Shown here: piece after piece, positions 1 to 30,281 of the stretch
How positions within the stretch are numbered: the stretch's first letter is position 1
Layout of the letters: the number at the start of each line of letters is the position of its first letter
DNA from: the human T2T-CHM13v2.0 reference genome, Homo sapiens
Assembly (NCBI RefSeq): GCF_009914755.1
Contig: NC_060929.1
Length of the DNA: 64,000 nucleotides
Direction: 5' to 3' (one strand)
Program-made: the position numbers and the translations under genes
The notes under the pieces: generated by a model
Databases searched by the model: none
What the model was told of the DNA's origin: nothing
Seen by the model: the letters and a program-made list of their open reading frames with translations, nothing else

Positions 1-780
1 TTTAAGGCATGTCTACTAGCAAAGAATTGTCTTAGTTTTTGTTAATCTGGGAAATCTTTATTTCACCATCATTTTTTAAAGAAGCTTTGGTGGATATAGG
101 ATTCTTGGTTGTCAGGTTTAGTTTTGCTTCTTTTTTTTTAGAGCACTTTGAATATGTTTGTTATTCCACTGCCTTCTGGCTGCCACTGTTTCAGCTGAAA
201 AGTCAACTGTTAATGTTATTGGGGTTCCCTTGTAAGTGACTCATTGTTTTCTTTGGCTATTCTTTGTTGCTGAGTCTCCGCATTTTTCCTATGATGTTTC
301 TGTTTGTGGGTCTACTTGTGTTTATCCTACTTAGAGTTCATTGAGCACTCTATATGTGTCAGTTAACATTCAATAAATTTGGCAAGACTTCAGCCATTGT
401 ATCTTCAATTTTTTTTTCTGCTCCATTCCTTTTCCCCTCTCCTTCATGCTTCCGTTACTTCTGTATTGATGAATTTAGTGGTGTCCCAAATTTCTCTAAG
501 ACTCTGTAAATTTTTCTTCATTCTATTTTCTTTTTGTTCTTCATGTTACATAAACCCTATTAATCTATCTTCAAATTCACTACTTTTTTTATTCTGCCAG
601 TTTGAAGATACTGTTGAATCCCCTCCTCCCTACCCCCAACCCCTAGTGAATTAATATTTAATTTGTTGTTATACTTTTCAACTCCAGAATTTCCATTTGT
701 CTCTTTAGAGTTTCTATCTCTTTACTGTTATTCTCTATTTAATGCAACATTTTTCTCATATCTTCCTTTACTACTTCTTT
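1..780 (-). mobile_element. Old L1 (L1M-type) fragment
   Basis: T-rich degenerate sequence resembling antisense ancient L1; L1-like sequence resumes around 1740-3470. Confidence 0.6.
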
Positions 781-784
781 TTTT

Positions 785-930
785 ATTATTATAAAAGGAT
801 ACAGTTTAAGAACAGCCAGGTGGAAGACATGCATAAGGCAAGGTATGGAGGAAGGAGCAGGGAGCCCCTATGCTCTCTTCAGGTGCACCACCCTCTCAGC
901 ACCTGCATGTGTTCAGCAACCTGAAACTAT
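785..930. mobile_element. MER21-type ERVL LTR fragment
   Basis: GAACAGCCAGGTGGAAGACATGCATAAGGCAAGGTATG resembles the recalled MER21 consensus. Confidence 0.6.
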
Positions 931-968
931 TCATTTTATTTTTTTCTTTCTCTTTTCTTTCTTTCTTT

Positions 969-1529
<561 letters not shown>

Positions 1530-1596
1530 GGAACTACTTCTTTAATCATAGTTTTCTTAATGTTTCCTTTGAAGGCTTTGTTAAAACTGACAGCTT

Positions 1597-1723
1597 GGCC
1601 AGGCACAATGGCTCACACCTGTAATCCAAGCACTTTGGGAGGCTGAGGGAGGATCACTGGAGCTCAGGATTCAAGACCAGCCTGGGCAACATAGTGAGAC
1701 CCCCCATCTCAATAAACAAAAAA
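1597..1723 (+). mobile_element. FLAM/Alu monomer
   Basis: Left monomer plus A-tail; TSD AAACTGACAGCT. Confidence 0.85.
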
Positions 1724-2221
1724 GAAACTGACAGCTGGTCATTTCTGTTACTTGCTTTTTTTTTTTTCTGGTGAATGGATTATACTTCTCTCTTTTTTTT
1801 TGCATGTCTCAAAATTTTTTGTTGGAAAATGGATATTTTAGAAAATATATTGTAGCAACTTTGGGTACTAACTCCTTCCAGTCCCACCCAACTCTAGTGC
1901 ATTTTGTTCTTATTTGCTTGTTTACTTGTTTAGTGACTGGCTGGATAATTTTAGTGAAGTTTAATCTCTCCCCACCCCCATTCCCACCCCCACATCCACC
2001 TGCAGTGTTAAACCTCTGATGCTGTTTCTCAGGATCTCAGCCTTGGCTATGCCCAGTTACCCTCTGATGACAGTGGTTTTGGCAGGACTCTCTTCAATAT
2101 TTATTTCCCTAACTCCACCCAGCTGTTAAGCTCCACTAATTGCAGGCTGATTGCTCTATTGTTTTCAACAACACCCTAAGGAATGAATTGCTCCAAAGAC
2201 TAATCCCATTACATTTGGGCT

Positions 2222-2488
<267 letters not shown>

Positions 2489-2735
2489 TAGTTCTCAAGG
2501 TCAGTGAGATTTGTTCTTACTCCAGAAGGATCCTTCCAGCTATCTCTTTCCCTGGTTCTCTCAGTCAAACTAGCCAGCCTACAGTTTCTATCTCCAGTGA
2601 GTCTACCAATATCCTTTCGATTGCCTGTCATGACAACCTCCCTTGTGTTGGAGAGCCCCTTAGGCTTAAGCTTCTCCAAACACTTTTGCAAAAAAGTCAT
2701 GTCCCCTGGGAAGAAAGTAGGAGCTAGGTGTGTTA

Positions 2736-3086
<351 letters not shown>

Positions 3087-3476
3087 GGCACAAATCTCTC
3101 CACATGACACACCTATTCCAGGAGTTGAGCATTCACTGGAATGGAAGGACAGTGTAATTGGGTCTTCTTATCTTGCTTCTCCCAGCATGGAACCACCACC
3201 TTACAACCTGGGCAAGTGTAATTGGGGCCTCAATATTCTTGGTGGCTATGTGCGCAATGTAGAGAGCTTCTATCCCATGGGTTGAAGCAGGGTAGAAGAC
3301 AGTCCCCACCTCTTGGTCACACTTGCCTGGTGCTTAGCCTGAGAAACAAGTAGGGGGAAGGATGAGAAATACTGACATCTTGCCCCTCCTGGGAGGATAG
3401 CCCTCTGACTAGAAATGGGAGAAGAGAAGCCCTGTATTCAAGTTCAAGTTCATCTACAGAGTCATGTTCTCTAGAG

Positions 3477-4225
3477 TATGTGGTCAGAATTCTTACAGAA
3501 GCACCGGGACTGCCCCCTGTAGCCTTTCAGTCCAAACAACTTGACCTTTCTGTTTTAGGCCGGCCCTCATGTCTGCATGCGGCAGCTGCTACTGCTCTAA
3601 TACTTTTAGAGGCCCTCAAAATCACAAACTATGCTCAACTCACTCTCTACAGTTCTCATAACTTTCAAAATCTATTTTCTTCCTCACACCTGATGCATAT
3701 ACTTTCTGCGCCACCACCTCACTCCCCCACCACCCCACTCCTTCAGCTGTACTCACTCTTTGTTGAGTCTCCCACAATTACCATGTTCCTGGCCCGGACT
3801 TCTATCCAGCCTCCCACATTATTCCGGATACCACACCTGACCCCCATGACTGTATCTCTCTGATCCACCTGGCATTCACCCCATTTCCCCATATTTCCTT
3901 CTTTCCTGTTCCTCACCCTGATCACACTTGGTTTATTGATGGCAATTCCACCAGGCCTAATTGCCACACACCAGCAAAGGCAGGCTATGCTATAGTATCT
4001 TCCACATCTATCGTTGAGGCTACCGCTCTGCCCCACTCCACTACCTCTCAGCAAGCCAAACTCATTGCCTTAACTCGAGCCCTCACCCTTGCAAAAGGAC
4101 TGTGTGTCAATATTTACACTGACTCTCTTTTCGGACTCTGCCCACTTACACCCAAGTGAAATAAACAGACTTGTTGCTCACACAAAGCCTGTTGGTGGAC
4201 TCTCTTCACACAGACTCGCATAACA
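3477..4225 (+). mobile_element. HERV-H pol (tether/RNase H) segment fused to LTR7 R-U5
   Basis: ORF 3480-3863 (VAFQSKQLDL...LLEALKITNYAQLTLYSSHNF) matches the minus-strand HERV-H pol at ~25200-26800; switches to LTR R-U5 at CTGACTCT (4119-4126) and ends ...TAACA. Confidence 0.92.
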
Positions 4226-4613
4226 TAGAAAACATAAGTACGGACCAAAGAATTAGAAGAAATACTAGACTAATTCTCTCTTCTTATTTGGCACGTACTG
4301 AAACCTAAGTAAAGGTATATGAGAAGAGATAAACAGTGAGCTATAATTTACATAACTGTGCCATTCTGTAACCCAATTCAGTCCAAGACTTGAGAAATAA
4401 CTGGGAGTACCTCACAGAGGAGTTATTTTATACATTTAAGGAACAAAAAGCTGGTAGTCCTGAATTTCTAAAAGCTATTTAGGATAAGTAGATTTTTACT
4501 TCTTATAATCCCCTAATACTACCTTACCACTAAAATAGACCAGAGCCAATTAAGCCACTTCTCTTTAAGAGGAAGCAGTATCGGCACTCTGTGTCTATTA
4601 AGAATCTTTCCAG

Positions 4614-4912
<299 letters not shown>

Positions 4913-5291
4913 TTATTTTCCCTTCCACTGAAAGGGCTAAAGGTAAATTTAGCTGGTAATAGAATAATTTCCAGCAAGGTCTTCGAGTAAAATTTTGAGG
5001 TATTTCTTATGTTTATACCACTCAACTAGAATTCAAAATCCAAGGTAATTACTGAGACCAAATTTCCTAGGAATGAGGAATGGGAATGTTGCAGGGCATC
5101 CTAAAGGGGCTACACCCTCTATGAACAGATACCTTGCACTCCAGGAGCTCATTAGAGTAAAATTTTTGTACATTTCCAGAATTAAATGGGAAAAAAAAGA
5201 AGGTGAACACAAGAGTTGAACTGAACAATGCACAGTGCTTTGTTCTGGCCCCACGAAAACATCTGAATATATCGTTTGCATCTAATCGTGC

Positions 5292-5739
5292 TGTGAAAGT
5301 TATCAGGAAGAAAAATGGAGTACCTAATGTTAAAAATAAAACCCTGATAAATAGAGCCAGGGATGGCTGTGAAGAGAGGATTTTCATGTTTATATGCCTG
5401 ATAACAAAAACTATCACAAAAGGCTCTGCAAAAACCAACCTCCATTGCAAACTTACACAAAAAAAAACTTCTGCAAGGACATCTGCCTAGTAACTCCTTG
5501 TCCAATTTCAGACTGATGTCACCCTTGTTATTGATCTCTGTAGCCAAGAATAATTATTTCAAAACAGTTATGCAATCCTCTTCATTAAAAACAAAACAAA
5601 ACAAAAAAACCTTTGTCTTGCTTTACTTCTCTGAATACATACATACTATGGCATGTGTATTCTCATTGCAGTGCTCTAGTCCCAAGTAAATATCATTTTC
5701 TTTTGGAGCGCCTCTCTCTATGTGTTATTTAAATTGACA
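5292..5739 (+). mobile_element. MER65-type ERV1 5' LTR
   Basis: TGTGAAAGT...TTGACA; direct repeat of 9623-10058; resembles recalled MER65A consensus. Confidence 0.85.
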
Positions 5740-5757
5740 TGGTGTCAGAAATGGGAC
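5740..5757 (+). promoter_or_regulatory. Primer binding site, tRNA-Leu type
   Basis: TGGTGTCAGAAATGGGA directly after the LTR; near-complement of the tRNA-Leu(CAA) 3' end (TGGTGTCAGAAGTGGGAT). Confidence 0.75.
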
Positions 5758-6508
5758 CTGAAAAAGATCACTATTGGAAGACGATGGCAATTCTTGGAAT
5801 TGGAGTGCAGTAGTCAATTGAGCCCTTTGAGCTCTCTGCTTCCATGGCTAGCCTTTTCTGCGCTGAGTCTACTCTCAGGCCAGGCCTCCCTCTTTTTGGT
5901 AGAACCTCTTAACTTTGTTTGGGATCTGATTTGAACAAGCCCATCTTAATGGCAAACCATCCATCCCTCCTGAGATGATAAAAGACTTTTTGTCTTTTAT
6001 GGTAACTTATTTCTTGTATAAGAATGTATATCCTTCTAGACTGAGTACTCTGGAGTCTACAGAATTGACATTCTGCCTGTGAGGCATGTCTTTTCTGGTT
6101 AATTTATTTTTGGTTTGGTTTGCACGCCTAGTTAAATATTTAACCTGCACTCCTGGGTTAAAATTTTTGTGAGCTTTCTTATCTTGGTTTCTTTTTATTT
6201 AGTTTAACTCTTTTCCCTTGATTATTGCTAAAAATCTTTCAGGAACAAAATTAATTGTTCTGGATGGTGGGCACAGGATGGCTAATTAAAAGCCAGTGGG
6301 GCATTCATCACCATCTAAAAGACTGGTTTAAACTTCTACCATTTCCTGACAGGATTTATAGAATTTTCTTTGCTCTTGAGATATTAATAAGAAATGGAAA
6401 AGGATTTTCAAGCAATAAGGCGTGCCAGGTTTTTTGGGACTCCAGAGAGCTACAAATTATAGCCCATTTTTAAACTGATGCACATTTTTAAATTGATGAA
6501 CAAAATTA

Positions 6509-6872
<364 letters not shown>

Positions 6873-7508
6873 GTTGGTTCAGAGCTCAAATGGTGATTAT
6901 TCAAACTATCAAAAAAAAAATTTCACAACTATAGAGCCAGCGTGTAGTCTTCTAAGTTCTCCATCTTTCTATTTTTTTTTCTCCCTACTTTACTTTCAAT
7001 CTGCTGACAAATCTACTGGCCTTGAGATAAAACTCACTGCTTATGGCATTCCAGCCATGATTTTTTTTTTTTAAGTCTCAGAATTTCAAATTTCTTAATT
7101 TTCAAAAGGCCTTCAAATTAATGACTTTACAAATTACAACAGCTTCATGGTAACCAACAACTTAGATAGCTTTAGGAAATATAAATTTAAGTTTTCCTAA
7201 CAATTGATTACAATGATAGAACACTTAATTGAAAAACTAATAATTTAAAAGAAAAAGAACTAGGTAAGTGTTTATAAAAGGCTGTCATATCAAACAGGTC
7301 AATACTTTAAAGCTTAGAAAAATAATATCAGGAATCTCTGCTTGGCATAAAAATTTTACTTTTTCTGCCATACAGAGGCCAAAAAGAAACAACTGGGAAA
7401 AAAATGATAAAACTGATTGCTGAACAAAAATATGTTTGTTCTTGGCTTCTTAACCTTTATAGAAAGACTAAATATATTTGATTTATTAATAAACATTTTA
7501 AAAATTAC

Positions 7509-7994
<486 letters not shown>

Positions 7995-8185
7995 TAATGC
8001 TATATTTTTCATTTGGCAGGATAATGATATTATTGAAATCTCATAATCAGAAGCTTCTGCTGTCAATTTAGCAGATTCTAGCCTAAGAAATCCTTTCCTA
8101 TTCATTGGTTAAATAAGAAAATTTCTGTGCTATTGTTAATACTACCTGCTGTAACTGGATAAATTCCTTGGGAAAGTTGAGACCC

Positions 8186-8752
8186 TGTGTTAGTCTGTTT
8201 TCGACTATGCTGGGCACAGTGGCTCATGCCTGTAATCCCAGGACTTTGGGAGACTGAGGTGGGAGGCTTGCTTGAGCTCAGGAGTTGGAGACCAGCCTGG
8301 GCAATATAGCAAGACCCTTGTCTCTAAAGAAAATAAAAATATATTCTTTAATTATTAAAAAAAAAAAGAAGAAATATCTGAGTCTGGGTAATTTAGAAAG
8401 AAAAGAGGTTTAATTGGCTGACAGTTCTGCAGGCTGTCCAGGAAGCATAGCAGCTTCTTCTTCTGGAGAGGCGTCAGGAAACATACAATCATGTCCGAAG
8501 GGGAAGGAGGAGCAGACACATCACATGGCTGGAGTAGGAGCAAGAATGAGAGCAGGGAGGTGCTACACACTTTTAAACAACCAGATCTCACGATAACTCA
8601 CTATCATGAGAACTGCACAGAAAAGATGGTCCTACCCATTCATGAGAACCCCTCCCCATGAGCTAATCACCTCCCACTAGACCCCACCTCCAACATTGGT
8701 GATTACAATTTAATGTGAGATTTGGGTGGCAACACAGATCCAAACCATATCA
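8186..8752 (-). mobile_element. MSTA/MSTB MaLR solo LTR with FLAM insertion (~8209-8370)
   Basis: TGTGTTAGTC...CCAAACCATATCA; 5-bp TSD GACCC/GGCCC. Confidence 0.85.
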
Positions 8753-9251
8753 GGCCCACTTACACAAAACAAGAAAACAGGCCACATGGTTACAACAGGT
8801 ATTTGTACAACATGCAATTCCATATGGTCATTTGATTTAATCAGTTGGTTGTTTTTAAGCCTAGGTTTATGGCTCAAAAACATATTATGCAAATTGGGAT
8901 TGTCATACTATTATTCATTTTACTTTGTATTTTTCCTTTTTAAACTTTGTATCTGCTACTTGTTAAATTTTTACAGAAGTACAACTCTTAACAAAATAAT
9001 ACTGGCTCAACACTTTGAGATGATGGTAAAAGACTATGGAACAGACAAAATTGAACTTTAATAATGGACTTTAGGTATACTTAGCCTGAGAGCCCCTCCC
9101 TTCGAACCTCCCTTGTTGCTTAAATATTGCTGAAAGTCTTTTGACACTGACTTCTAGTCACTAGTCACTAGTCACTACCCTTAACACGAGAAGAAACCAG
9201 CAACTGGGACAAATTCATCCCTGCACCGAGGGACATCAAAACCTAAGTACA

Positions 9252-21930: not shown

Positions 21931-21971
21931 ATCATTCAGTTTTTTCTTTTCCTTTTTTTTTTTTTTTTTTT

Positions 21972-22684
21972 TGAGCAATAAAGCTTTTTAATCACCTGGG
22001 TGCAGGTGAGCTGAGTCCAAAAAGAGAGTCAGCAAAGAGTGGTGGGATTATCATTAGTTCTTATAGGTTTGGGATAAGTGGTGGAGCTAGGAGCAATTTT
22101 TTGTGGTCAGGGGGTGGATCTCACAAAGTACATTCTCAAGGTCGGGGAGAATATTACAAAGTACCTTCTTAAGGGTGGGGGAGAATATTACAAAGTACCT
22201 TCTTAAGGGTGGGGGAGAATATTACAAAGTACCTTCTTAAGGGTGCGGGAGAATATTACAAAGTACCTTCTTAAGGGTGGGGGAGAATATTACAAAGTAC
22301 ATTCTCAAGGTCGGGGAGAATATTACAAAGTACCTTCTTAAGGGTGGGGGAGAATATTACAAAGTACCTTCTTAAGGGTGCGGGAGAATATTACAAAGTA
22401 CCTTCTTAAGGGTGGGGGAGAATATTACAAAGTACCTTCTTAAGGGTGGGGGAGAATATTACAAAGTACCTTCTTAAGGGCTGGGGAATATCGCAAAGTA
22501 CGTTATCGCAAGGGCGGGGAGGGTGTATTGTTATAAGGTCAGTTGATCAGTTAGGGTGGGGCAGGAACAGATCACAATGGTGGAATGTCATCTTTCATAG
22601 TTCTTCAGTTGCTTCAGGCCATCTGGATGTATACATGCAGGTCACAGGGGATATGATGGCTTAGCTTGGGCTGAGAGGCCTGAC
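21972..22684 (-). promoter_or_regulatory. LTR7 (type I) U3-R without U5
   Basis: GTCAGGCCTCTCAGCCCAAGCTAAGCC start; TATAA at 22065-22061; ATTAAA poly(A) signal. Confidence 0.9.
22123..22525. repeat. 34-bp tandem array (12 units) inside LTR7 U3
   Basis: Unit ACAAAGTACCTTCTTAAGGGTGGGGGAGAATATT, counted directly. Confidence 0.95.
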
Positions 22685-23876
22685 TTCTTATAGTAATTAT
22701 TAATTATTCCTGTCTTCTTATATTAATAAGAAAAACAAAACAAAATGGTGATGAAGTGTTGTGGCGGCGAAAATGTTTGGCGATGGTATGGAGAGATAAT
22801 GGGCGATGTTGCTCAGGGCTGCTTCAAGTGGGATTAGGGGCGGTGTGGGAACCTAGAGTGGAAGAGATTAAACTGAAGAAAGATTTGGGGGTAAGGGGTG
22901 GTGGTGTGGGGTTGTTAGAGGGAGCATTTGTACAGAATGATTGGTGATGGCCTAGATGTGGTTTTGCATGAATTGAGAAACTAAACAGAAGACACGAGGA
23001 CCAAATAAAAGAAGGAGAAAAATAGGTACTAAAGGACTAAGAATTAGGAGTACCCAGGACATCCAATTAGAGAGTGTCCAAGGGGGTCCAGCATAGTTGT
23101 TTGCTTGGCTAGCGAGTTTTTGGGTTTTATCCTTGAGTTTTTTTTTTTATGTTGTCATATACCAGGCCAGATTGATTTAGGTAAAAATAACACTCTTCAT
23201 TTAAAAATATACAGAGTCTCCTTTTTATTTTTGTAGCATTAAGTCGGGTCCTCAGCAATTTTGGAGGAAAGAGAAACGCAAAGCCAGCAATTGTTTGTTA
23301 AAGAAGGATTAGAAATGGCTAGGAGAGAGTGAGTAAGATTGACAGTGTGGTGGAGATAGCTGGGGAGAGGTAGAGGGTGGCATAGAATAAGAGTGAATAT
23401 AAAAGTAAAGAATAGGACTTCATCAGGGTGAAAGTATTTGTGTGTGCCCTATCAGCAAAGATCATCTATCCACTCCAAGAGGGAGTCAAGAGTGGCAGAT
23501 TGGGGAAAGTACCAGGAGATATCTGCTACGATGGTTTGGAGGAAAAGTGTAAACCGGCAGTGTAAACAAGGGCAGGGCATATACGAGTAGTTAAGAATGG
23601 TGAATAGGAGTATGACTAGACAGAAGATGGTAGGGATGACAAGTTTTTGGGGTGCAGTCCAAGTAGTGGGGGTGACTGCGTTGTAAAGAGTACTCTGCAT
23701 TGTAAAGAGTAGGGTAAGGAAGAAGAGACCTAATAAAAATGAAAGGATGTATTAGGCTTATAAGGGTTACTATTATCCTTTAGGAATGCAGGTGAGTTTA
23801 AGGGAAGTAGGAGAGAGTACTTGCGACTTCCAGGCGGAAGAAGAGAAATCAGGCTGTCTGTCTGATGGGCACAGCT

Positions 23877-24865
23877 TTACTCTGGGATGATGAACCTAAA
23901 GGGAGGAGGGTCCTGCAGATGAACAGCTGTTGGGGTACTATAGATGACTAAGTGGGGTCCGGTCCACCGAGGTTGTAGAGTTTGAGGGGTCAGATTTTTA
24001 ACAAGAACTGATCGATGAGCTAGGGTGTCTTCATATGGCTGGGAATCTAGGGTAGGCAAAAGAAGATTAGCAGCTCAGCAAATTTCCTGTCTAGCTTGCT
24101 GGAGGACTGGAAGATAATCACCTAGAGGGCTGGTGTCTGGAATGAGACTGGGGCCTAATCAAAAGGAGCGTCCATACAGGAGCTCAAATGGGCTGTACCC
24201 TGTAGCATCCCGAGGACAGGCCCGAATTCTGAGAAGGACAAGTGGTAAAAGTACTGTCCAGTCGTTTTTAAGCTGGAGGCTGAGCTTGGTGAGGTGTGTC
24301 TTTAAAAGACCATTAGTTCTTTCTACCTCTCCTGAGTATTGAGGGCAATAAGGAGCATGAAGTTTCCATTGAATGCCCAGGGCCTGGGAGACTGCCTGAG
24401 TGACTTGACTAATAAAGGTCGGTCCATTATCGGGCTGTATAGAGGTGGGAAGGCCAAACGGAGGAATTGTCTGACAGAAGGGAGGAAATGACCGTGGTGG
24501 CCTCATACCCTGTGGGAAAGGCCTCTACCCATCCAGTGAAAGTGTCTACCCAGACCAAGAGGTATTTTAGTTTCCTGACTCGGGGCATGTGAGTAAAGTC
24601 AATTTGTCAGTCCTGGGTAGAGGCAAATCCCCAAGCTTGATGTGTAGGGAAGGTGGGGGGGCCTGAACAATCCCTGAGGAGTAGTAGAATAGCAGATGGA
24701 ACATTGAGAAGTGATTTCCTTGAGGATAGATTTCCATGATGGAAAGGAAATGAGAGGTTCTAAGAGGTGGGCTAACGGCTTGTAACCTACATGGAAGAGG
24801 TTATGAAAGGACAACAGAATAGAATGGGCCTGTGAGGCTGGAAGGAGATATTCTCCTTGGTCCAA
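23877..24865 (-). pseudogene. HERV-H integrase relic
   Basis: IPPFGLPTSIQPDNGPTF...SGEVERTNGLLK (D and E of the DDE motif), HNLFH...CSIC zinc finger, WTGPH (GPY/F-like); frames broken. Confidence 0.9.
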
Positions 24866-25260
24866 GAACTGTTTGCCTTGTGTGGGAAGAGATTAATAGG
24901 TGGAAGTTTCAGTGGGAGAGTAGGTGGGAGTGACCGATGAGAAGGAGACAAACTGGCTGTGAGGGACAGAAGTTGGAACACTAGCTGCTTTTTAGCTACC
25001 TTATTAGCATAAACATTGTCCTGAGCGATGAGGCCACTGCAAGGTGGCCCTTGCAGTGAATGACTCCAGCTTCCTTTAGAAGTAAAGCAGCCTTGAGAAG
25101 AGTTTTCATTAAAGAGGCATTAATGATGGAGGGCCCTTGCCTAGTGAGGAAACCTCTTTCTGCCCATATAACAGCATGGTGGTGCAGGATATGGAAGGCA
25201 TATTTAGAGTCAGTATAAATATTGATGCATAGTCCCTTTGCAAGAATGAGGGCCTGAGTT

Positions 25261-26211
25261 CAACCTACAAAATGGGAGAAAATTTTCACAACCTACTCAT
25301 CTGAAAAAGGGCTAATATCCAGAATCTACAATGAACTCAAACATATTTACAAGAAAAAAACAAACAACCCCATCAAAAAGTGGGCGAAGGATATGAACAG
25401 ATACTTCTCAACAGAAGACATTTAGGCAGCCAAAAGACACATGAAAAAATGCTCATCATCACTGGCCATCAGAGAAATGGAAATCAAAACCACAATGAGA
25501 TACCATCTCACACCAGTTAGAATGGCAATCATTAAAAAGTTAGGAAGCAACAGGTGCTGGAGAGGATGTGGAGAAATAGGAACACTTTTACACTGTTGGT
25601 GGGACTGTAAACTAGTTCAACCATTGTGGAAGTCAGTGTGGTGATTCCTCAGGGATCTAGAACTAGAAATACCATTTGACCCAGCCATCCCATTACTGGG
25701 TATATACCCAAAGGACTATAAATCATGCTGCTATAAAGACACATGCACACATAAGTTTATTGCAGCACTATTCACAATAGCAAAGACTTGGAACCAACCC
25801 AAATGTCCAACAACGATAGACTGGATTAAGAAAATGTGGCACATATACACCATGGAACACTATGCAGCCATAAAAAATGATGAGTTCATGTCCTTTGTAG
25901 GGACATGGATGAAACTGGAAATCATCATTCTCAGTAAACTATCGCAAGGACAAAAAACCAAACACCGCATGTTCTCACTCATAGATGGGAATTGAACAAT
26001 GAGAACACATGGACACAGGAAGGGGAACATCACACACTGGGGACTGTTGTGGGGTGGGGGGAGGGGGGAGGGATAGCATTAGGAGATATACCTAATGCTA
26101 ATTGATGAGTTAATGGGTGCAGCACACCAGCATGGCACATGTATACATGTGTAACTAACCTGCACATTGTGTACATGTACCCTAAAACTTAAAGTATAAA
26201 AAAAAAAAAAA
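25261..26211 (+). mobile_element. 5'-truncated L1PA (L1PA3/4-like) inserted in HERV-H RNase H
   Basis: ORF2 C-terminus ([18 protein letters not shown]), 3' UTR G-rich tract and poly(A); 19-bp TSD AAGAATGAGGGCCTGAGTT (25242-25260, 26212-26230); lacks the L1Hs ACA diagnostic. Confidence 0.95.
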
Positions 26212-26242
26212 AAGAATGAGGGCCTGAGTTAAGGCAATGAGT

Positions 26243-27210
26243 TCAGCTTACTGAGAGGTAGTGGAGGGGCAGAGTGGTAGTCTCAATGATAGATGTGGAA
26301 GATACTATAGCATAGCCTGCCTTTGCTGGTGTGTGGTGATTAGGCCTGGTGGAACTGCTATCGATAAACCAAGTGTGATCAGGGTGAGGAACAGGAAAGA
26401 AGGAAATATGGGGAAATGGAGTGAATGTCAGGTGGATCAGAGAGATATAGTCATGGGGGTCAGGTGTGGTATCAGGAATAATGTGGGAGGCCGGATTGAA
26501 GTCCAGGCCAAGAACAATGGTAATTGTGGGAGACTCAACAAACAGTGAATACAGCCAAAGGAGCCGGAGGGCAGAAAGTATATGTGTCAGGTGTGAGGAA
26601 GAAAATAGACTTTGAAAGTTATGAGAACTGTAGAGAGTGAGTTGAGCATAGTTTGTGATTTTGAGGGCCTCTAAAAGTATTAAAGAAGCAGCAGCTGCCA
26701 CACGCAGACTTGAGGGCTAGGCTAAAAGAGTAAGGTCAAGTTGTTTGGACAGAAAGGCTACAGGGCGTGGTCCCAGCTCTTATGTAAGAATTCTGACCAC
26801 ACAGCCCTGCACTTTGGCTGTGTGTAATGAAAAAGGTTGGGATGAGTTAGGGAGAGCTAGTGTGGGAGCAGATTTTAGGGCTGTTTTTTAAGGAATGGAA
26901 AGGGGAGTGGGGCAAGGATTTAGGATTTATGGGGTCAGCTAGGTTTATCTAGAACAGAATAATGGGTTGTAGAGGGAGATATTGAGGATAGGAGAGTATA
27001 TGGGTTTGGCACCATGGGGTGGATAGGCAAGACAATTTGGTTGATAAGGCGCAGATTCTGAACTAACCTGTAAGGCTTGTCTGGTTTTTGGACAGGTAAA
27101 ATGGGGGAATTGTAAGGAGAGTTTATAGGCTTTAAAAGGCCATGCTGTAACAGGCAAGTGATGACAGGCTTTAATCCTTTAAAGTGTGCTGTGGGATGGG
27201 ATATTGGCAT
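26243..27210 (-). pseudogene. HERV-H RT/RNase H relic with RT core deleted
   Basis: SPYNSPILPVQKPDKPYRLVQNLRLINQ...YSVLD then a jump; no YXDD seen; WFIDSSS...AKAGYAIV RNase H. Confidence 0.88.
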
Positions 27211-27492
27211 TGAGTGGGGTAAGGGTGATTAAATTTTAATGGGATGGTAAGGGGTGCATCATCCGTCACCAAGGAGGGAGTAGAGGTGTCCTATACTTGT
27301 AGATTAAGGTGGGGAGATACAAAGGGAGGATGTGAAGGAGGCTTTGAACTGGGGAAAAAGGTGGCAATGAGGTGTGGCTATAGCCCAGGAATAGTCAGGG
27401 AAGCAGATAATTTAGTTAAAATGTCTCGACCTAGTAAGGGAGCTGGTCAGGTGAGGATAACTAAAAAGGAGTGCATTAAAGAATGTTGTCCA

Positions 27493-28350
<858 letters not shown>

Positions 28351-28438
28351 CAGGGGATGGACTTACCCTCCACTGTAAGAGTTACTCGAAGCTCGGGGTC
28401 CGTGATAGTCCAGGAGCTTCCAAAGCGATTGGGCAGCG

Positions 28439-29330
28439 TCAGTCTTCAGCTGTTGAGCCAAGGAGATCTGGAAAGGAGTCGGCCAAGGAACGTTGGGTTT
28501 GAGCTCTGGGAGCTTTAGGAGTGGCAGCTATGTGAGTTGGACAGTCCGACTTCCAGTGGGGGCCCGCACAGACAGGGCACAGCTTAGGAGGAATCCCGGG
28601 CTGCAGGCATTCTGAGGCCCAGTGGCCAGGCTTTTGGCATATGAAGCAAGGTCCACAGGGAGGTTTTGAAGGAGCCCCTGGGAGATGTGGCTTGGATGTT
28701 CTGAAGTTTTTGTATGCTGGAGACAGGGTTTTGGGTTGTCTTACAGTGGAGGCAGGTAGCTGTAACTCAGAGATGCATTGTCGCTTGGCTGCTTCTTCTC
28801 TATTATTGTACACCTTGAAGGTGAGGTTAATTAAGTCCTGTTGTGGGGTTTGAGGACCAGAATCCAATTTTTGGAGTTTTTTTCTAATGTCGGGAGGGGT
28901 CGGGTAATAAAATGCATATTGAGAATAAAACGGCCTTCTGTCCTCTCTGGGTCTTGGGCAGTAGAGCATCTAAGGGTTGTTGTCAAATGGGCCATGAACT
29001 GGGCTGGGTTTTTATAGTTGATGAAAAAGAAAAAAGAGCCTAAATGCTAACTGATTTGGGAGAGGTCGGTTAAAGAAAAAGGAGCATTAACCGTGACTAT
29101 GCCTTTAGCTCCAGCCACCTTTCTAAGAGGAAACTGTTGGGCAGGTGGGGGAGGGCTAGTCCCAGAACGAAGCTGTAAACCAGACCAGGTGTGAGGAGGG
29201 GAGGTGATAGAATGATTATAGGGTGGGGGAGGGGAGGCTGAGGAAGAATTGGGACCTGGCTACACCTGGCGCGGAGCAGCCTGGGGAGGAGGGGAGAGGT
29301 CAGATGAGTCCGTAGGAAAGGAGGATTCAA
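28439..29330 (-). pseudogene. HERV-H gag relic
   Basis: PDIRKKLQKL...FKVYNNREE; zinc knuckles CFICQKPGHWASEC and CPVCAGPHWKSDC. Confidence 0.9.
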
Positions 29331-29807
29331 AGGACTCAGAGCTTGGAGTGGAGACTGAAGGAACAGACAGGAGAGAAAGAGGAAAGATTTGGGAAGAGTC
29401 GCATTGGGAGCAGAGATTAGGAAGCGACCGATGTGTAAAAGAATGCCTGGACGTCAGGCACCTCAGACCATTTGCCCATTTTTCGACAAAAATTATCTAG
29501 ATCTTGTATAAGGATCTTGTATAGGATAGACAAATCGAAAGTGCCATTCTCTGGCCACTTGGAACTACTGTCGAGTTTGTATTGGGGCCAAGCAGTATTG
29601 TAGAAGAAAATAAGACATTTAAGTTTAAGTTCTTGAGAGAAGAAGGGGGAATGGAGGGCAGAAGTTTAGTGAAAAGACCGCTTACCCGATTTGAAATTGG
29701 TGAGATGTTCCTTGGGCTGGCTGGTCTGAGGACCCAAGGTCGTAGGTGGATCTCCTCATGGAGTGAGGGCGAGGACAGGGGGCTGGTCTCCCAAAGGAGT
29801 CCTCCTG

Positions 29808-29826
29808 TCCCAGGTTTTCAGCACCA
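29808..29826 (-). promoter_or_regulatory. Primer binding site, tRNA-Phe-like
   Basis: TGGTGCTGAAAACCTGGGA vs Phe TGGTGCCGAAACCCGGGA and His TGGTGCCGTGACTCGGAT. Confidence 0.8.
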
Positions 29827-29875
29827 AATGTCACGCACATCCACATGAAGATACCGCCAAACAGGCTTTGTGTGA

Positions 29876-30281
<406 letters not shown>

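What the first reader, a model, noticed from the sequence alone, without database searches (positions are those of the whole stretch)
3472..4230. Possible neo-LTR: HERV-H pol sequence replaces U3, suggesting aberrant strand transfer during reverse transcription
Seen: ~640 bp of pol joins LTR R-U5 through the 8-bp microhomology CTGACTCT (4119-4126). This motif occurs in pol (TATACTGACTCTAAA, minus strand near 25205-25215) and at the very start of R (GCTGACTCT). The element ends in CA and starts TATGTGG, where the pol counterpart (26803) reads TGTGTGG. Flanks are TAGAG/TAGAA (4/5 match, integrase-sized). In pol the start is preceded by AAAGTGCAGGGC|TGT, loosely resembling the true PPT junction AAGACAGGAA|T. 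Inference: minus-strand strong-stop DNA jumped to an internal microhomology, plus strand primed at a cryptic PPT, and the product integrated and now remains as a solo LTR with a pol-derived U3. This would be a direct route to new LTR architectures.
Basis: partly seen in the sequence, partly recalled or inferred. Interest (0 to 1): 0.8.

Follow-up and report, generated by a model that had tools for sequence, protein, structure and literature searches.

The report
HERV-H LTR with pol-derived U3
This is a 749-bp solitary retroviral end-repeat whose promoter half was replaced by part of the virus's own polymerase gene through a copying error, and a second copy elsewhere in the human genome shows that the altered repeat was inserted at least twice.

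Summary
Window 3477-4225 is 642 bp of HERV-H pol (RT connection domain to the RNase H 'YTDS' codons). It is fused at the 8-nt microhomology CTGACTCT (4119-4126) to an LTR7-type R-U5. It ends in CA and is flanked by TAGAG/TAGAA.

New evidence:
- T2T-CHM13 holds exactly one more copy (chr2:138,267,905-138,268,616). It has the same first base, the same junction, TG...CA ends, unrelated flanks and a perfect 5-bp duplication (ATATG).
- Both copies share a 1-bp deletion found in none of about 860 other HERV-H pol copies, so they have one source.
- An L1-made retrocopy of HERV-H RNA in this same window starts at G-GCTGACT. This places the junction at nucleotide +2 of R, where finished minus-strand strong-stop DNA ends.
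- The two copies carry R-U5 of different LTR7 subtypes, as heterologous strand transfer would give.
- The left end follows a weak purine-rich site, and the major HERV-H pol deletion (549 copies) ends within 1 nt of it.

No proviral form was found, and no outgroup genome could be checked. No report was found in print. I score it as a new variant of a known kind, of moderate-to-high interest.

The parts
3472..3476 (+). Left copy of the 5-bp target-site duplication (TAGAG)
   Evidence: It matches 4 of 5 bases of the right copy. A 5-bp duplication is the HERV-H size, as seen in a canonical chr12 provirus (CAATT/CAATT) and in the nested LTR7 of this window (CAGGG/CAGGG).
3477..4118 (+). Pol-derived 'neo-U3' of 642 bp, running from the RT connection region to the N-terminal half of RNase H. 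It starts TA (TG in the chr2 copy and in pol).
   Evidence: 86-90% identity to the full-length HERV-H pol copies listed, all ending at window 4126 or earlier; 3923-4126 translates to Pfam RNase_H (E 1.4e-7, profile positions 5-68 of 141); homology to pol starts exactly here in both copies.
4119..4126 (+). Junction microhomology CTGACTCT. It is shared by pol (the codons of YTDS) and by nucleotides +2 to +9 of R.
   Evidence: 7 of 7 pol copies continue with AAAT.. after it, and 10 of 10 LTR7 copies have U3 (...CCCTT-TG/CA) before it. map the R start to the G just upstream.
4119..4180 (+). R region (lacking its first G). The AATAAA signal is at 4160-4165 and R ends at TTGCTCA (4174-4180).
   Evidence: The R boundaries come from the L1-type retrocopy, which begins G-GCTGACT and ends TTGCTCA followed by 19 A. 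R-U5 subtype A.
4181..4225 (+). U5, ending in CA (4224-4225). No primer-binding site follows.
   Evidence: it aligns to LTR7 U5 ends. Canonical 5' LTRs are followed by TTTGGTGC...; here host DNA follows.
4226..4230 (+). Right copy of the target-site duplication (TAGAA)

Best explanation
A chimeric HERV-H LTR made by two errors of reverse transcription, then inserted by integrase.

**Step 1 (inferred from the junction).** Finished minus-strand strong-stop DNA has a 3' end that is the complement of the first bases of R. Instead of annealing to the 3' R, it annealed to the 8-nt match CTGACTCT inside the RNase H coding part of pol. This removed the rest of pol, env, the polypurine tract (PPT) and U3.

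**Step 2 (inferred).** With the PPT gone, plus-strand synthesis started at an internal site 642 nt upstream, after AAAGTGCAGGGC. That made TGTGTGG... the new left end.

**Step 3 (shown by ends and duplications).** DNA bounded by TG...CA was integrated with 5-bp target duplications, on chr5 (this window) and on chr2.

**Step 4 (inferred).** Each provirus carried this 'pol-R-U5' repeat at both ends and later collapsed to a solo LTR by recombination.

**Descent of the two copies.**
- They come from one pol source (shown by a unique shared 1-bp deletion).
- Most likely (about 55-60%), one founder provirus with the new LTR was copied again. One daughter took R-U5 from a co-packaged HERV-H RNA of another LTR7 subtype.
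- Less likely, one defective source RNA gave the same aberrant product twice.
For: **Second copy.**
- The chr2 copy (L010:975-1686) aligns to window 3476-4214 as a single match, with no homology in the flanks.
- It has the same start and junction and a perfect ATATG/ATATG duplication.
- Three independent junction patterns each find only these 2 places in the 3.1-Gb genome, with controls at 0.
- A looser pattern gave 1468 matches against 1604 in the control. All 20 non-self hits that I checked lacked any homology.

**R start.**
- The window's HERV-H copy on the minus strand has no 5' U3. It begins G-GCTGACT (29935/29934) and ends TTGCTCA plus 19 A, flanked by a 16-18-nt duplication. It is therefore a copy of the RNA.
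- That puts the neo-LTR junction at R +2.
- TATAAA lies 31 nt upstream of CTGACTCT in 7 of 10 LTR7 copies.
- In a reference provirus, 89 LTR-internal 8-mer pairs exist at 76 LTR positions. The pair used here is one of only 3 at the R start.

**Common descent.**
- Both copies lack one T (ACCA-TGTTCC), where 28 of 28 aligned pol copies have it.
- Genome-wide, the T-less version gives 5 hits. Two are these copies and 3 are other variants. The normal version gives 858 hits.

**Mosaic R-U5.**
- chr5 carries subtype A motifs. chr2 carries subtype B motifs plus an R-start variant shared with L061 and L065.
- The pol parts are 89.6% identical, while R-U5 matches at only 88 of 107 positions.
- Intermolecular first-strand transfer is normal in retroviruses (PMC3187697, passages).

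**Left end.** It has 9 of 12 purines upstream (rank 4-10 of 214 TG sites). It is tied best of 214 in similarity to the true PPT context AAAAAGACAGGAA|TGTCAGG.

**Both loci are solitary.** No other HERV-H sequence lies within about 5 kb of either copy.
Against: - No provirus with two such LTRs exists in T2T-CHM13, so the solo-LTR step is unseen.
- The internal priming site is only moderately purine-rich, and better purine runs exist upstream.
- The neo-U3 has lost the TATA box and GC/GT box, so how a founder would be transcribed is open.
- The pol tree does not join the two copies. chr5 groups with L002/L003/L006/L038 at 93/91 support. The AU test of a two-copy clade gives p 0.16, which is neither rejected nor shown.
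- chr5 has a C-rich insert that chr2 lacks.
- The base before CTGACTCT is the pol A, not the R G. The strong-stop DNA must therefore have stopped one base short, or the RNA began at C.
- Orthologous empty sites could not be examined.
Confidence: 0.8

Rival explanations
1. The junction arose first at the DNA level, or as an internal template switch: a microhomology-mediated deletion from pol to the 3' LTR inside an ordinary provirus. The deleted element then retrotransposed, using the internal plus-strand start because its PPT was gone.
For: The 8-nt microhomology would serve any microhomology-driven process. The rest of the model (internal priming, integration, two copies) is unchanged.
Against: A generic process could have used any of 89 LTR-internal 8-mer pairs at 76 LTR positions, including 9-11-nt matches. 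The pair actually used is one of only 3 at the R start, which is exactly where strong-stop DNA ends. No provirus with a normal 5' LTR and this junction exists in the genome.
Confidence: 0.08
2. The 749-bp unit was never a pair of LTRs. A short double-stranded cDNA (pol fragment-R-U5) was integrated directly. It formed when minus-strand synthesis ran off an RNA end at the TGTG site after the aberrant jump.
For: - Only solitary copies exist.
- The major HERV-H pol deletion (549 genomic copies) ends within 1 nt of the same site with one extra A. An RNA end or strong stop there could give that pattern.
Against: - It needs integrase to process a U5 end carrying an 18-nt PBS overhang.
- It needs the same rare product twice from one source.
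- Solo-LTR formation is the common fate of ERVs (established knowledge) and explains the same data with standard steps.
Confidence: 0.1
3. An ordinary HERV-H provirus was reduced to this fragment by two post-insertion deletions, and the flanking 5-mers are coincidence.
For: The chr5 copy alone (4 of 5 flank match) could not exclude this.
Against: A second locus has identical boundaries at both ends and at the junction, unrelated flanks and a perfect 5-bp duplication.
Confidence: 0.01
4. LINE-1-mediated retrocopy of a chimeric transcript, or a DNA-level duplication of one locus.
For: L1-made HERV-H retrocopies do exist; one lies in this window.
Against: - There is no poly(A) tail.
- The element includes U5, which lies beyond the poly(A) site.
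- The duplications are 5 bp rather than 7-20 bp.
- The ends are TG...CA.
- The flanks of the two copies are unrelated.
Confidence: 0.01

Closest known systems
Canonical HERV-H LTR7 solo LTRs (for example window 27946-28350, and the chr12 provirus LTRs)
   Same: R-U5 sequence, AATAAA in R, TG...CA-type ends, 5-bp target duplication, solitary state.
   Different: The whole 362-bp U3 (TGTCAGG... through the TATA box) is absent. It is replaced by 642 bp of pol. The element is 749 bp, against 405-470 bp.
Products of nonhomologous minus-strand strong-stop DNA transfer in SNV/MLV vector experiments (Yin et al. 1997 J Virol 71:2487; Pulsinelli & Temin 1991 J Virol 65:4786). I saw only the titles, in a reference list. 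The papers are not held, so their content is recalled.
   Same: Strong-stop DNA lands on an internal site through a few bases of homology, and U3 is deleted. As I recall, the products are integrated proviruses.
   Different: This is a natural germline fossil about 25-30 My old. The PPT was lost as well, so a new plus-strand start defined a new left end. The product exists at two loci.
HIV-1 proviruses with asymmetric LTRs (Joseph et al. 2022, PMC9278108; passages read)
   Same: [quoted passage not shown] Rescue comes from the co-packaged RNA.
   Different: Those proviruses keep a normal 5' LTR and are somatic. Here the left integration end itself is the pol sequence, so the repeat was rebuilt.
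Central or second plus-strand origins (lentiviral cPPT, Ty1 PPT2). Recalled, not tested here.
   Same: An internal plus-strand start inside pol.
   Different: In those elements the internal PPT copies the 3' PPT and is used routinely. Here the site is only PPT-like and its use is inferred from a DNA end.
L1-made ERV processed pseudogenes (HERV-W; PMC5537654 abstract, seen in a search listing)
   Same: A non-standard ERV-derived insertion lacking one U3.
   Different: Those are R-U5...U3-R-poly(A) with long duplications, as is the HERV-H retrocopy in this window. The finding has U5 at its 3' end, no poly(A) and 5-bp duplications.

Membership tests
Retroviral LTR / solo LTR (generic) | 5'-TG...CA-3' termini | tested here: met
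   chr2 copy TG...CA. chr5 copy TA...CA, with one transition at base 2.
Retroviral LTR / solo LTR (generic) | Target-site duplication of the family's length (5 bp for HERV-H) | tested here: met
   chr5 TAGAG/TAGAA (4 of 5) and chr2 ATATG/ATATG (5 of 5). The 5-bp size is shown by CAATT and CAGGG.
Retroviral LTR / solo LTR (generic) | Independent insertions with unrelated flanks | tested here: met
   2 loci, with no flank homology. Only 2 are found by 3 junction patterns.
Retroviral LTR / solo LTR (generic) | Occurs as a direct repeat at both ends of an internal region (PBS...PPT) | tested here: not met
   No locus has two junctions. No HERV-H internal sequence lies within about 5 kb of either copy. 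Other primates were not searched.
Retroviral LTR / solo LTR (generic) | U3 carries the promoter (TATA about 30 nt before R) | tested here: not met
   The LTR7 TATAAA at -31 and the following C-rich box are absent. RNase H coding sequence lies there instead. Promoter activity of the pol segment was not tested.
HERV-H LTR7 family (name recalled from Repbase/Dfam usage) | U3 homologous to LTR7, starting TGTCAGGCC | tested here: not met
   Nothing upstream of 4119 matches LTR7 U3.
HERV-H LTR7 family (name recalled from Repbase/Dfam usage) | R-U5 homologous to LTR7 | tested here: met
   89-96% identity to genomic LTR7 R-U5 copies. Subtype motifs were assigned.
Product of nonhomologous minus-strand strong-stop DNA transfer | Donor breakpoint at the 5' end of R | tested here: met
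   The junction is at R +2. The R start is mapped by the retrocopy's 5' end and by TATA spacing.
Product of nonhomologous minus-strand strong-stop DNA transfer | Short homology between the strong-stop 3' end and the internal acceptor | tested here: met
   8 nt, CTGACTCT.
Product of nonhomologous minus-strand strong-stop DNA transfer | The event happened during reverse transcription | not testable with these tools
   Inferred from the anatomy only.
L1-mediated processed retrocopy | 3' poly(A) at the end of R and a 7-20-bp duplication | tested here: not met
   There is no poly(A), U5 is present and the duplication is 5 bp. Compare the true retrocopy.

The most novel reading that the evidence does not exclude
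A coding-sequence-derived LTR completed at least one further full cycle of retrotransposition. It was transcribed without a U3 promoter, copied again from the same internal plus-strand start, given a new R-U5 by strand transfer from a co-packaged HERV-H of another subtype, and integrated.

This would reveal a functional internal plus-strand origin in HERV-H pol. That origin would lie at the very nucleotide where the pol deletion carried by most HERV-H copies ends.
Probability: 0.4. Interest if true: 0.8.

Novelty: new variant of a known kind. Interest (0 to 1): 0.62.

Why it matters
LTR families differ mostly in U3, and how a wholly new U3 arises is seldom caught in the act. Here the anatomy records the event base by base:
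- the strong-stop DNA end,
- the 8-nt landing site,
- the new plus-strand start,
- the integrase-made duplications.

A second insertion shows that the product was not a dead end.

This gives a natural counterpart to vector experiments on nonhomologous strand transfer. It points to a specific nucleotide in HERV-H pol as a recurrent discontinuity. It also warns that repeat annotation will split such units into 'internal' plus 'LTR fragment' and so miss them.

Tried and rejected
- **Third copy or proviral form.**
  - The exact 29-mer found only the window itself.
  - A degenerate 30-mer and two gapped anchor patterns found 2 places each.
  - A loose 25-mer gave noise, 1468 matches against 1604 in the control. 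I compared 20 of its hits with the element and none was homologous.
  - DNA-query searches score only 40 of about 2000-2700 candidates, and one of them missed the chr2 copy. Counts therefore rest on the pattern scans.
- **Junction at the other internal CTGACTCT of HERV-H.** None found; the single hit is an ordinary LTR7.
- **Empty-site proxy among paralogous repeats.** The chr2 pattern found no match.
- **Pol phylogeny to test common descent.** The tree is star-like and undecided: AU p 0.16. The shared substitutions sit in CG contexts in my reading of the printed columns and are uninformative. The 1-bp deletion was the usable character.
- **Splicing as the cause of the 211-bp pol deletion.** Rejected on the junction sequence.
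- **Literature.** Six searches found no report of a HERV-H or other ERV LTR with pol-derived U3.
- **Key older papers not held.** Sjottem 1996, Yin 1997, Pulsinelli & Temin 1991 and Temin 1993 could not be read.
- **Outgroup orthologues.** No primate genome is available.

Full report
**What is there**

Window 3477-4225 (749 bp) has two parts.

- Bases 3477-4126 are HERV-H pol.
  - They match the window's own HERV-H copy on the minus strand (26801-26217, 88.0% over 608 bp).
  - They match the full-length genomic pol copies listed at 86-90% identity. Every such match stops at window 4126 or earlier (40 of 2661 candidates scored).
  - The last 68 codons (3923-4126) hit Pfam RNase_H (E 1.4e-7, profile positions 5-68 of 141). 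The fragment therefore runs from the RT connection region to the YTDS motif in the middle of RNase H.
- Bases 4119-4225 are LTR7-type R-U5, with AATAAA at 4160-4165 and a terminal CA at 4224-4225. They are 89-96% identical to genomic LTR7 copies.
- The two parts overlap in CTGACTCT (4119-4126).
  - In 7 of 7 pol copies this word is followed by AAAT..., the codons after YTDS.
  - In 10 of 10 LTR7 copies it is preceded by U3 (...CCCTTTG, or ...CCCTTCA in one copy). TATAAA lies 31 nt upstream in 7 of 10; two have TGTAAA and one has TATAAG.
- The flanks are TAGAG (3472-3476) and TAGAA (4226-4230).
The element ends at 4225, not 4226.

**A second copy**

- A search with the junction region (window 4040-4226) returned one hit besides the window itself that spans the junction. 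It lies at chr2:138,268,431-138,268,605 (40 of 1958 candidates scored).
- Comparing window 2500-5200 with that locus gives a single match, window 3476-4214 to L010:974-1675 (84.2% over 742 columns). There is no homology in the flanks.
- The chr2 element (L010:975-1686, chr2:138,267,905-138,268,616) starts TGTGTGG at the same base and has the same pol|R junction. It ends ...GAGACA and is flanked by ATATG on both sides.
- The 5-bp duplication size fits HERV-H. A canonical chr12 provirus has CAATT/CAATT, and an ordinary solo LTR7 in this window has CAGGG/CAGGG.
- Three different junction patterns each find exactly these two places in the genome, with reversed-pattern controls at 0:
  - a degenerate 30-mer with up to 3 mismatches;
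  - two patterns made of a pol anchor, a gap and an R anchor.
- A looser 25-mer was uninformative (1468 matches, control 1604). I compared 20 of its non-self hits with the element and none had any homology.
- By my arithmetic, the 30-mer scan would catch a third copy at about 8% divergence with roughly 85% probability. 'Two copies' is therefore likely but not certain.
- Both loci are solitary. No other HERV-H sequence lies in window 1-9000 or within about 5 kb of the chr2 copy.
- Two loci with identical boundaries exclude post-insertion deletions, and unrelated flanks exclude a segmental duplication.

**Where R starts**

- The window supplies its own measurement. The HERV-H copy on the minus strand (29935 down to 21953) has no 5' U3.
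- It begins G-GCTGACTTT directly after an 18-nt flank, GGAAAAAAGAAAAAACTG (29953-29936).
- It ends with U3-R up to TTGCTCA, followed by 19 A and the same flank in 16-nt form (21952-21937).
- That is the structure of an L1-made copy of the genomic RNA, so its ends mark the cap site and the poly(A) site.
- R is therefore GCTGACT...TTGCTCA, 62-63 nt. The extra first G is what cap copying often adds (recalled).
- The neo-LTR junction thus lies at R +2, one base from the end of full-length minus-strand strong-stop DNA.
- In a reference provirus, the LTR and the internal region share 89 8-mer pairs at 76 LTR positions, some extending to 9-11 nt. The pair used is one of only 3 at the R start.
- A generic microhomology deletion had many other choices. 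A strong-stop DNA end had only this donor point.
- The base before CTGACTCT is the pol A in both copies, not the R G. The transferred DNA therefore ended at the complement of C.

**The left end**

- In pol, the start is preceded by ...CACACAGCCAAAGTGCAGGGC in 7 of 8 copies and in 21 of 27 copies.
- The true PPT junction in the chr12 provirus is AAAAAGACAGGAA|TGTCAGG.
- I scanned the 214 TG sites between the PBS and the junction of that provirus.
  - The site used has 9 of 12 purines upstream, which ranks 4-10.
  - It is tied best (11 of 21, with two other sites) in similarity to the true PPT context.
  - It is followed by TGT..GG, as the real LTR start is.
- This is modest support for internal plus-strand priming. 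Selection for an integrable TG end probably also narrowed the choice (inference).
- An unexpected coincidence concerns the other 6 of 27 pol copies.
  - They carry a 211-bp deletion whose 3' edge lies within 1 nt of the neo-LTR start, with one extra A at the joint.
  - Its junction occurs 549 times in the genome, so it belongs to the major HERV-H form.
  - Two independent rearrangements at one nucleotide suggest a site-specific discontinuity in reverse transcription. I cannot say which kind.

**One origin or two**

- The pol parts of the two copies are 89.6% identical (K2P 0.114).
- In a tree of 30 pol fragments they do not group. The fragments were the 2 neo copies, the window retrocopy, and 27 of the 40 scored hits (the lower-scoring or partial hits were left out).
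  - chr5 sits with L002/L003/L006/L038 at 93/91 support.
  - The tree is star-like, and an AU test does not reject a two-copy clade (p 0.16).
- The shared substitutions sit in CG contexts in my reading of the printed columns, and many other copies have them too.
- One character is decisive.
  - Both copies lack a T in ACCATTGTTCC, where 28 of 28 other fragments keep it.
  - In the whole genome the T-less word (up to 2 mismatches) gives 5 hits. Two are these copies and three are different variants.
  - The normal word gives 858 hits.
  - The two copies therefore share a pol source that left no ordinary descendant in the genome.
- Their R-U5 parts are of different LTR7 subtypes.
  - chr5 has CTT.CACCCAAG and GGTGGACTCTC. 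This is type A, seen in 6 other rows of the 36-row panel.
  - chr2 has CTGCACCCAGG and TTTGGTGGTCTC. This is type B, seen in 14 other rows.
  - chr2 also has the R-start variant CTGACTCCTTTTT, seen in L061 and L065.
  - R-U5 identity between the two copies is 88 of 107.
- In retroviral replication, R-U5 of the progeny comes from the RNA that made the strong-stop DNA, and U3 comes from the RNA it lands on. Transfer between co-packaged RNAs is common (PMC3187697, passages).
- A founder with the new LTR, re-copied with strong-stop DNA from a co-packaged HERV-H of another subtype, would give exactly this mosaic through an ordinary homologous R-to-R jump.
- The alternative is two separate aberrant jumps onto the same source RNA.
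  - It needs a rare event twice. Nonhomologous recombination is at least 1000-fold rarer than homologous recombination (same review).
  - It also needs no normal progeny to survive, unless the source RNA lacked a 3' R.
- I put propagation at about 55-60%.

**Age**

- The end branches are 0.051 (chr5) and 0.080 (chr2), against a median of 0.057 for ordinary copies.
- Half the pol K2P distance is 0.057. With a neutral rate of about 2.2e-9 per site per year (recalled), that is about 25-30 My.
- This falls within the main HERV-H expansion. The estimate is rough.

**What is known**

- Six full-text searches found no description of an ERV LTR with a pol-derived U3.
- The mechanism has experimental precedent in vector systems. 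I saw only the titles of those papers, and their content is recalled.
- It has a somatic parallel in HIV proviruses with asymmetric LTRs (PMC9278108, passages).
- The finding is therefore a new natural variant of a known kind of error. Its unusual points are loss of the PPT, a rebuilt left end and two insertions.

**Limits**

- No outgroup genome was available.
- No proviral form was found.
- Plus-strand priming at the pol site is inferred from DNA ends.
- The promoter status of the new U3 is unknown.

Noticed in passing
window 21937-29953 (minus strand): The window's HERV-H 'provirus' is an L1-type processed retrocopy of genomic RNA. It has no 5' U3, starts G-GCTGACT at 29935/29934 and ends TTGCTCA plus 19 A (21971-21953). 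It is flanked by a 16-18-nt duplication, GGAAAA(AA)GAAAAAACTG (29953-29936 and 21952-21937). A review abstract calls HERV-W the sole HERV group mobilised by L1 (PMC5537654, search listing), so a HERV-H case may be worth recording. Its 3' U3 holds about ten tandem copies of a roughly 34-bp unit (22130-22490).
   Followed up: partly
HERV-H pol, the site homologous to window 3477 (L004, L030, L031, L034, L040, L043; 549 genomic matches): The major HERV-H pol form carries a 211-bp deletion (joint ...CATGGTT-A-GTGC...). Its 3' edge lies within 1 nt of the neo-LTR's first base. Two independent rearrangements at one nucleotide remain unexplained.
   Followed up: partly
window 27946-28350 (+): An ordinary solo LTR7 (405 bp, TGTCAGG...CATGAAA, subtype B R-U5) is nested in the opposite orientation inside the retrocopy. 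It has a perfect 5-bp duplication, CAGGG (27941-27945 and 28351-28355).
   Followed up: yes
window 25261-26211: A roughly 950-bp insertion with a poly(A) end splits the retrocopy's RNase H region. It is flanked by a 19-bp duplication, AACTCAGGCCCTCATTCTT on the minus strand (26230-26212 and 25260-25242). It looks like LINE-1 by recall. Neither the family nor a possible 5' inversion was tested.
   Followed up: no
G000:C2:233705286-233705895 (-) and G000:C4:134970092-134970871 (+): At two loci, LTR7 R-U5 is followed within about 20-150 bp by the same pol region. These look like 5' LTR-to-pol internal deletions, the mirror image of the finding.
   Followed up: no
LTR7 R-U5 panel, loci L011-L020 and L048-L067: R-U5 motifs occur in mixed combinations (A/B, B/A and the R-start variant) in several copies. 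Recombination between LTR7 subtypes would give this pattern.
   Followed up: partly
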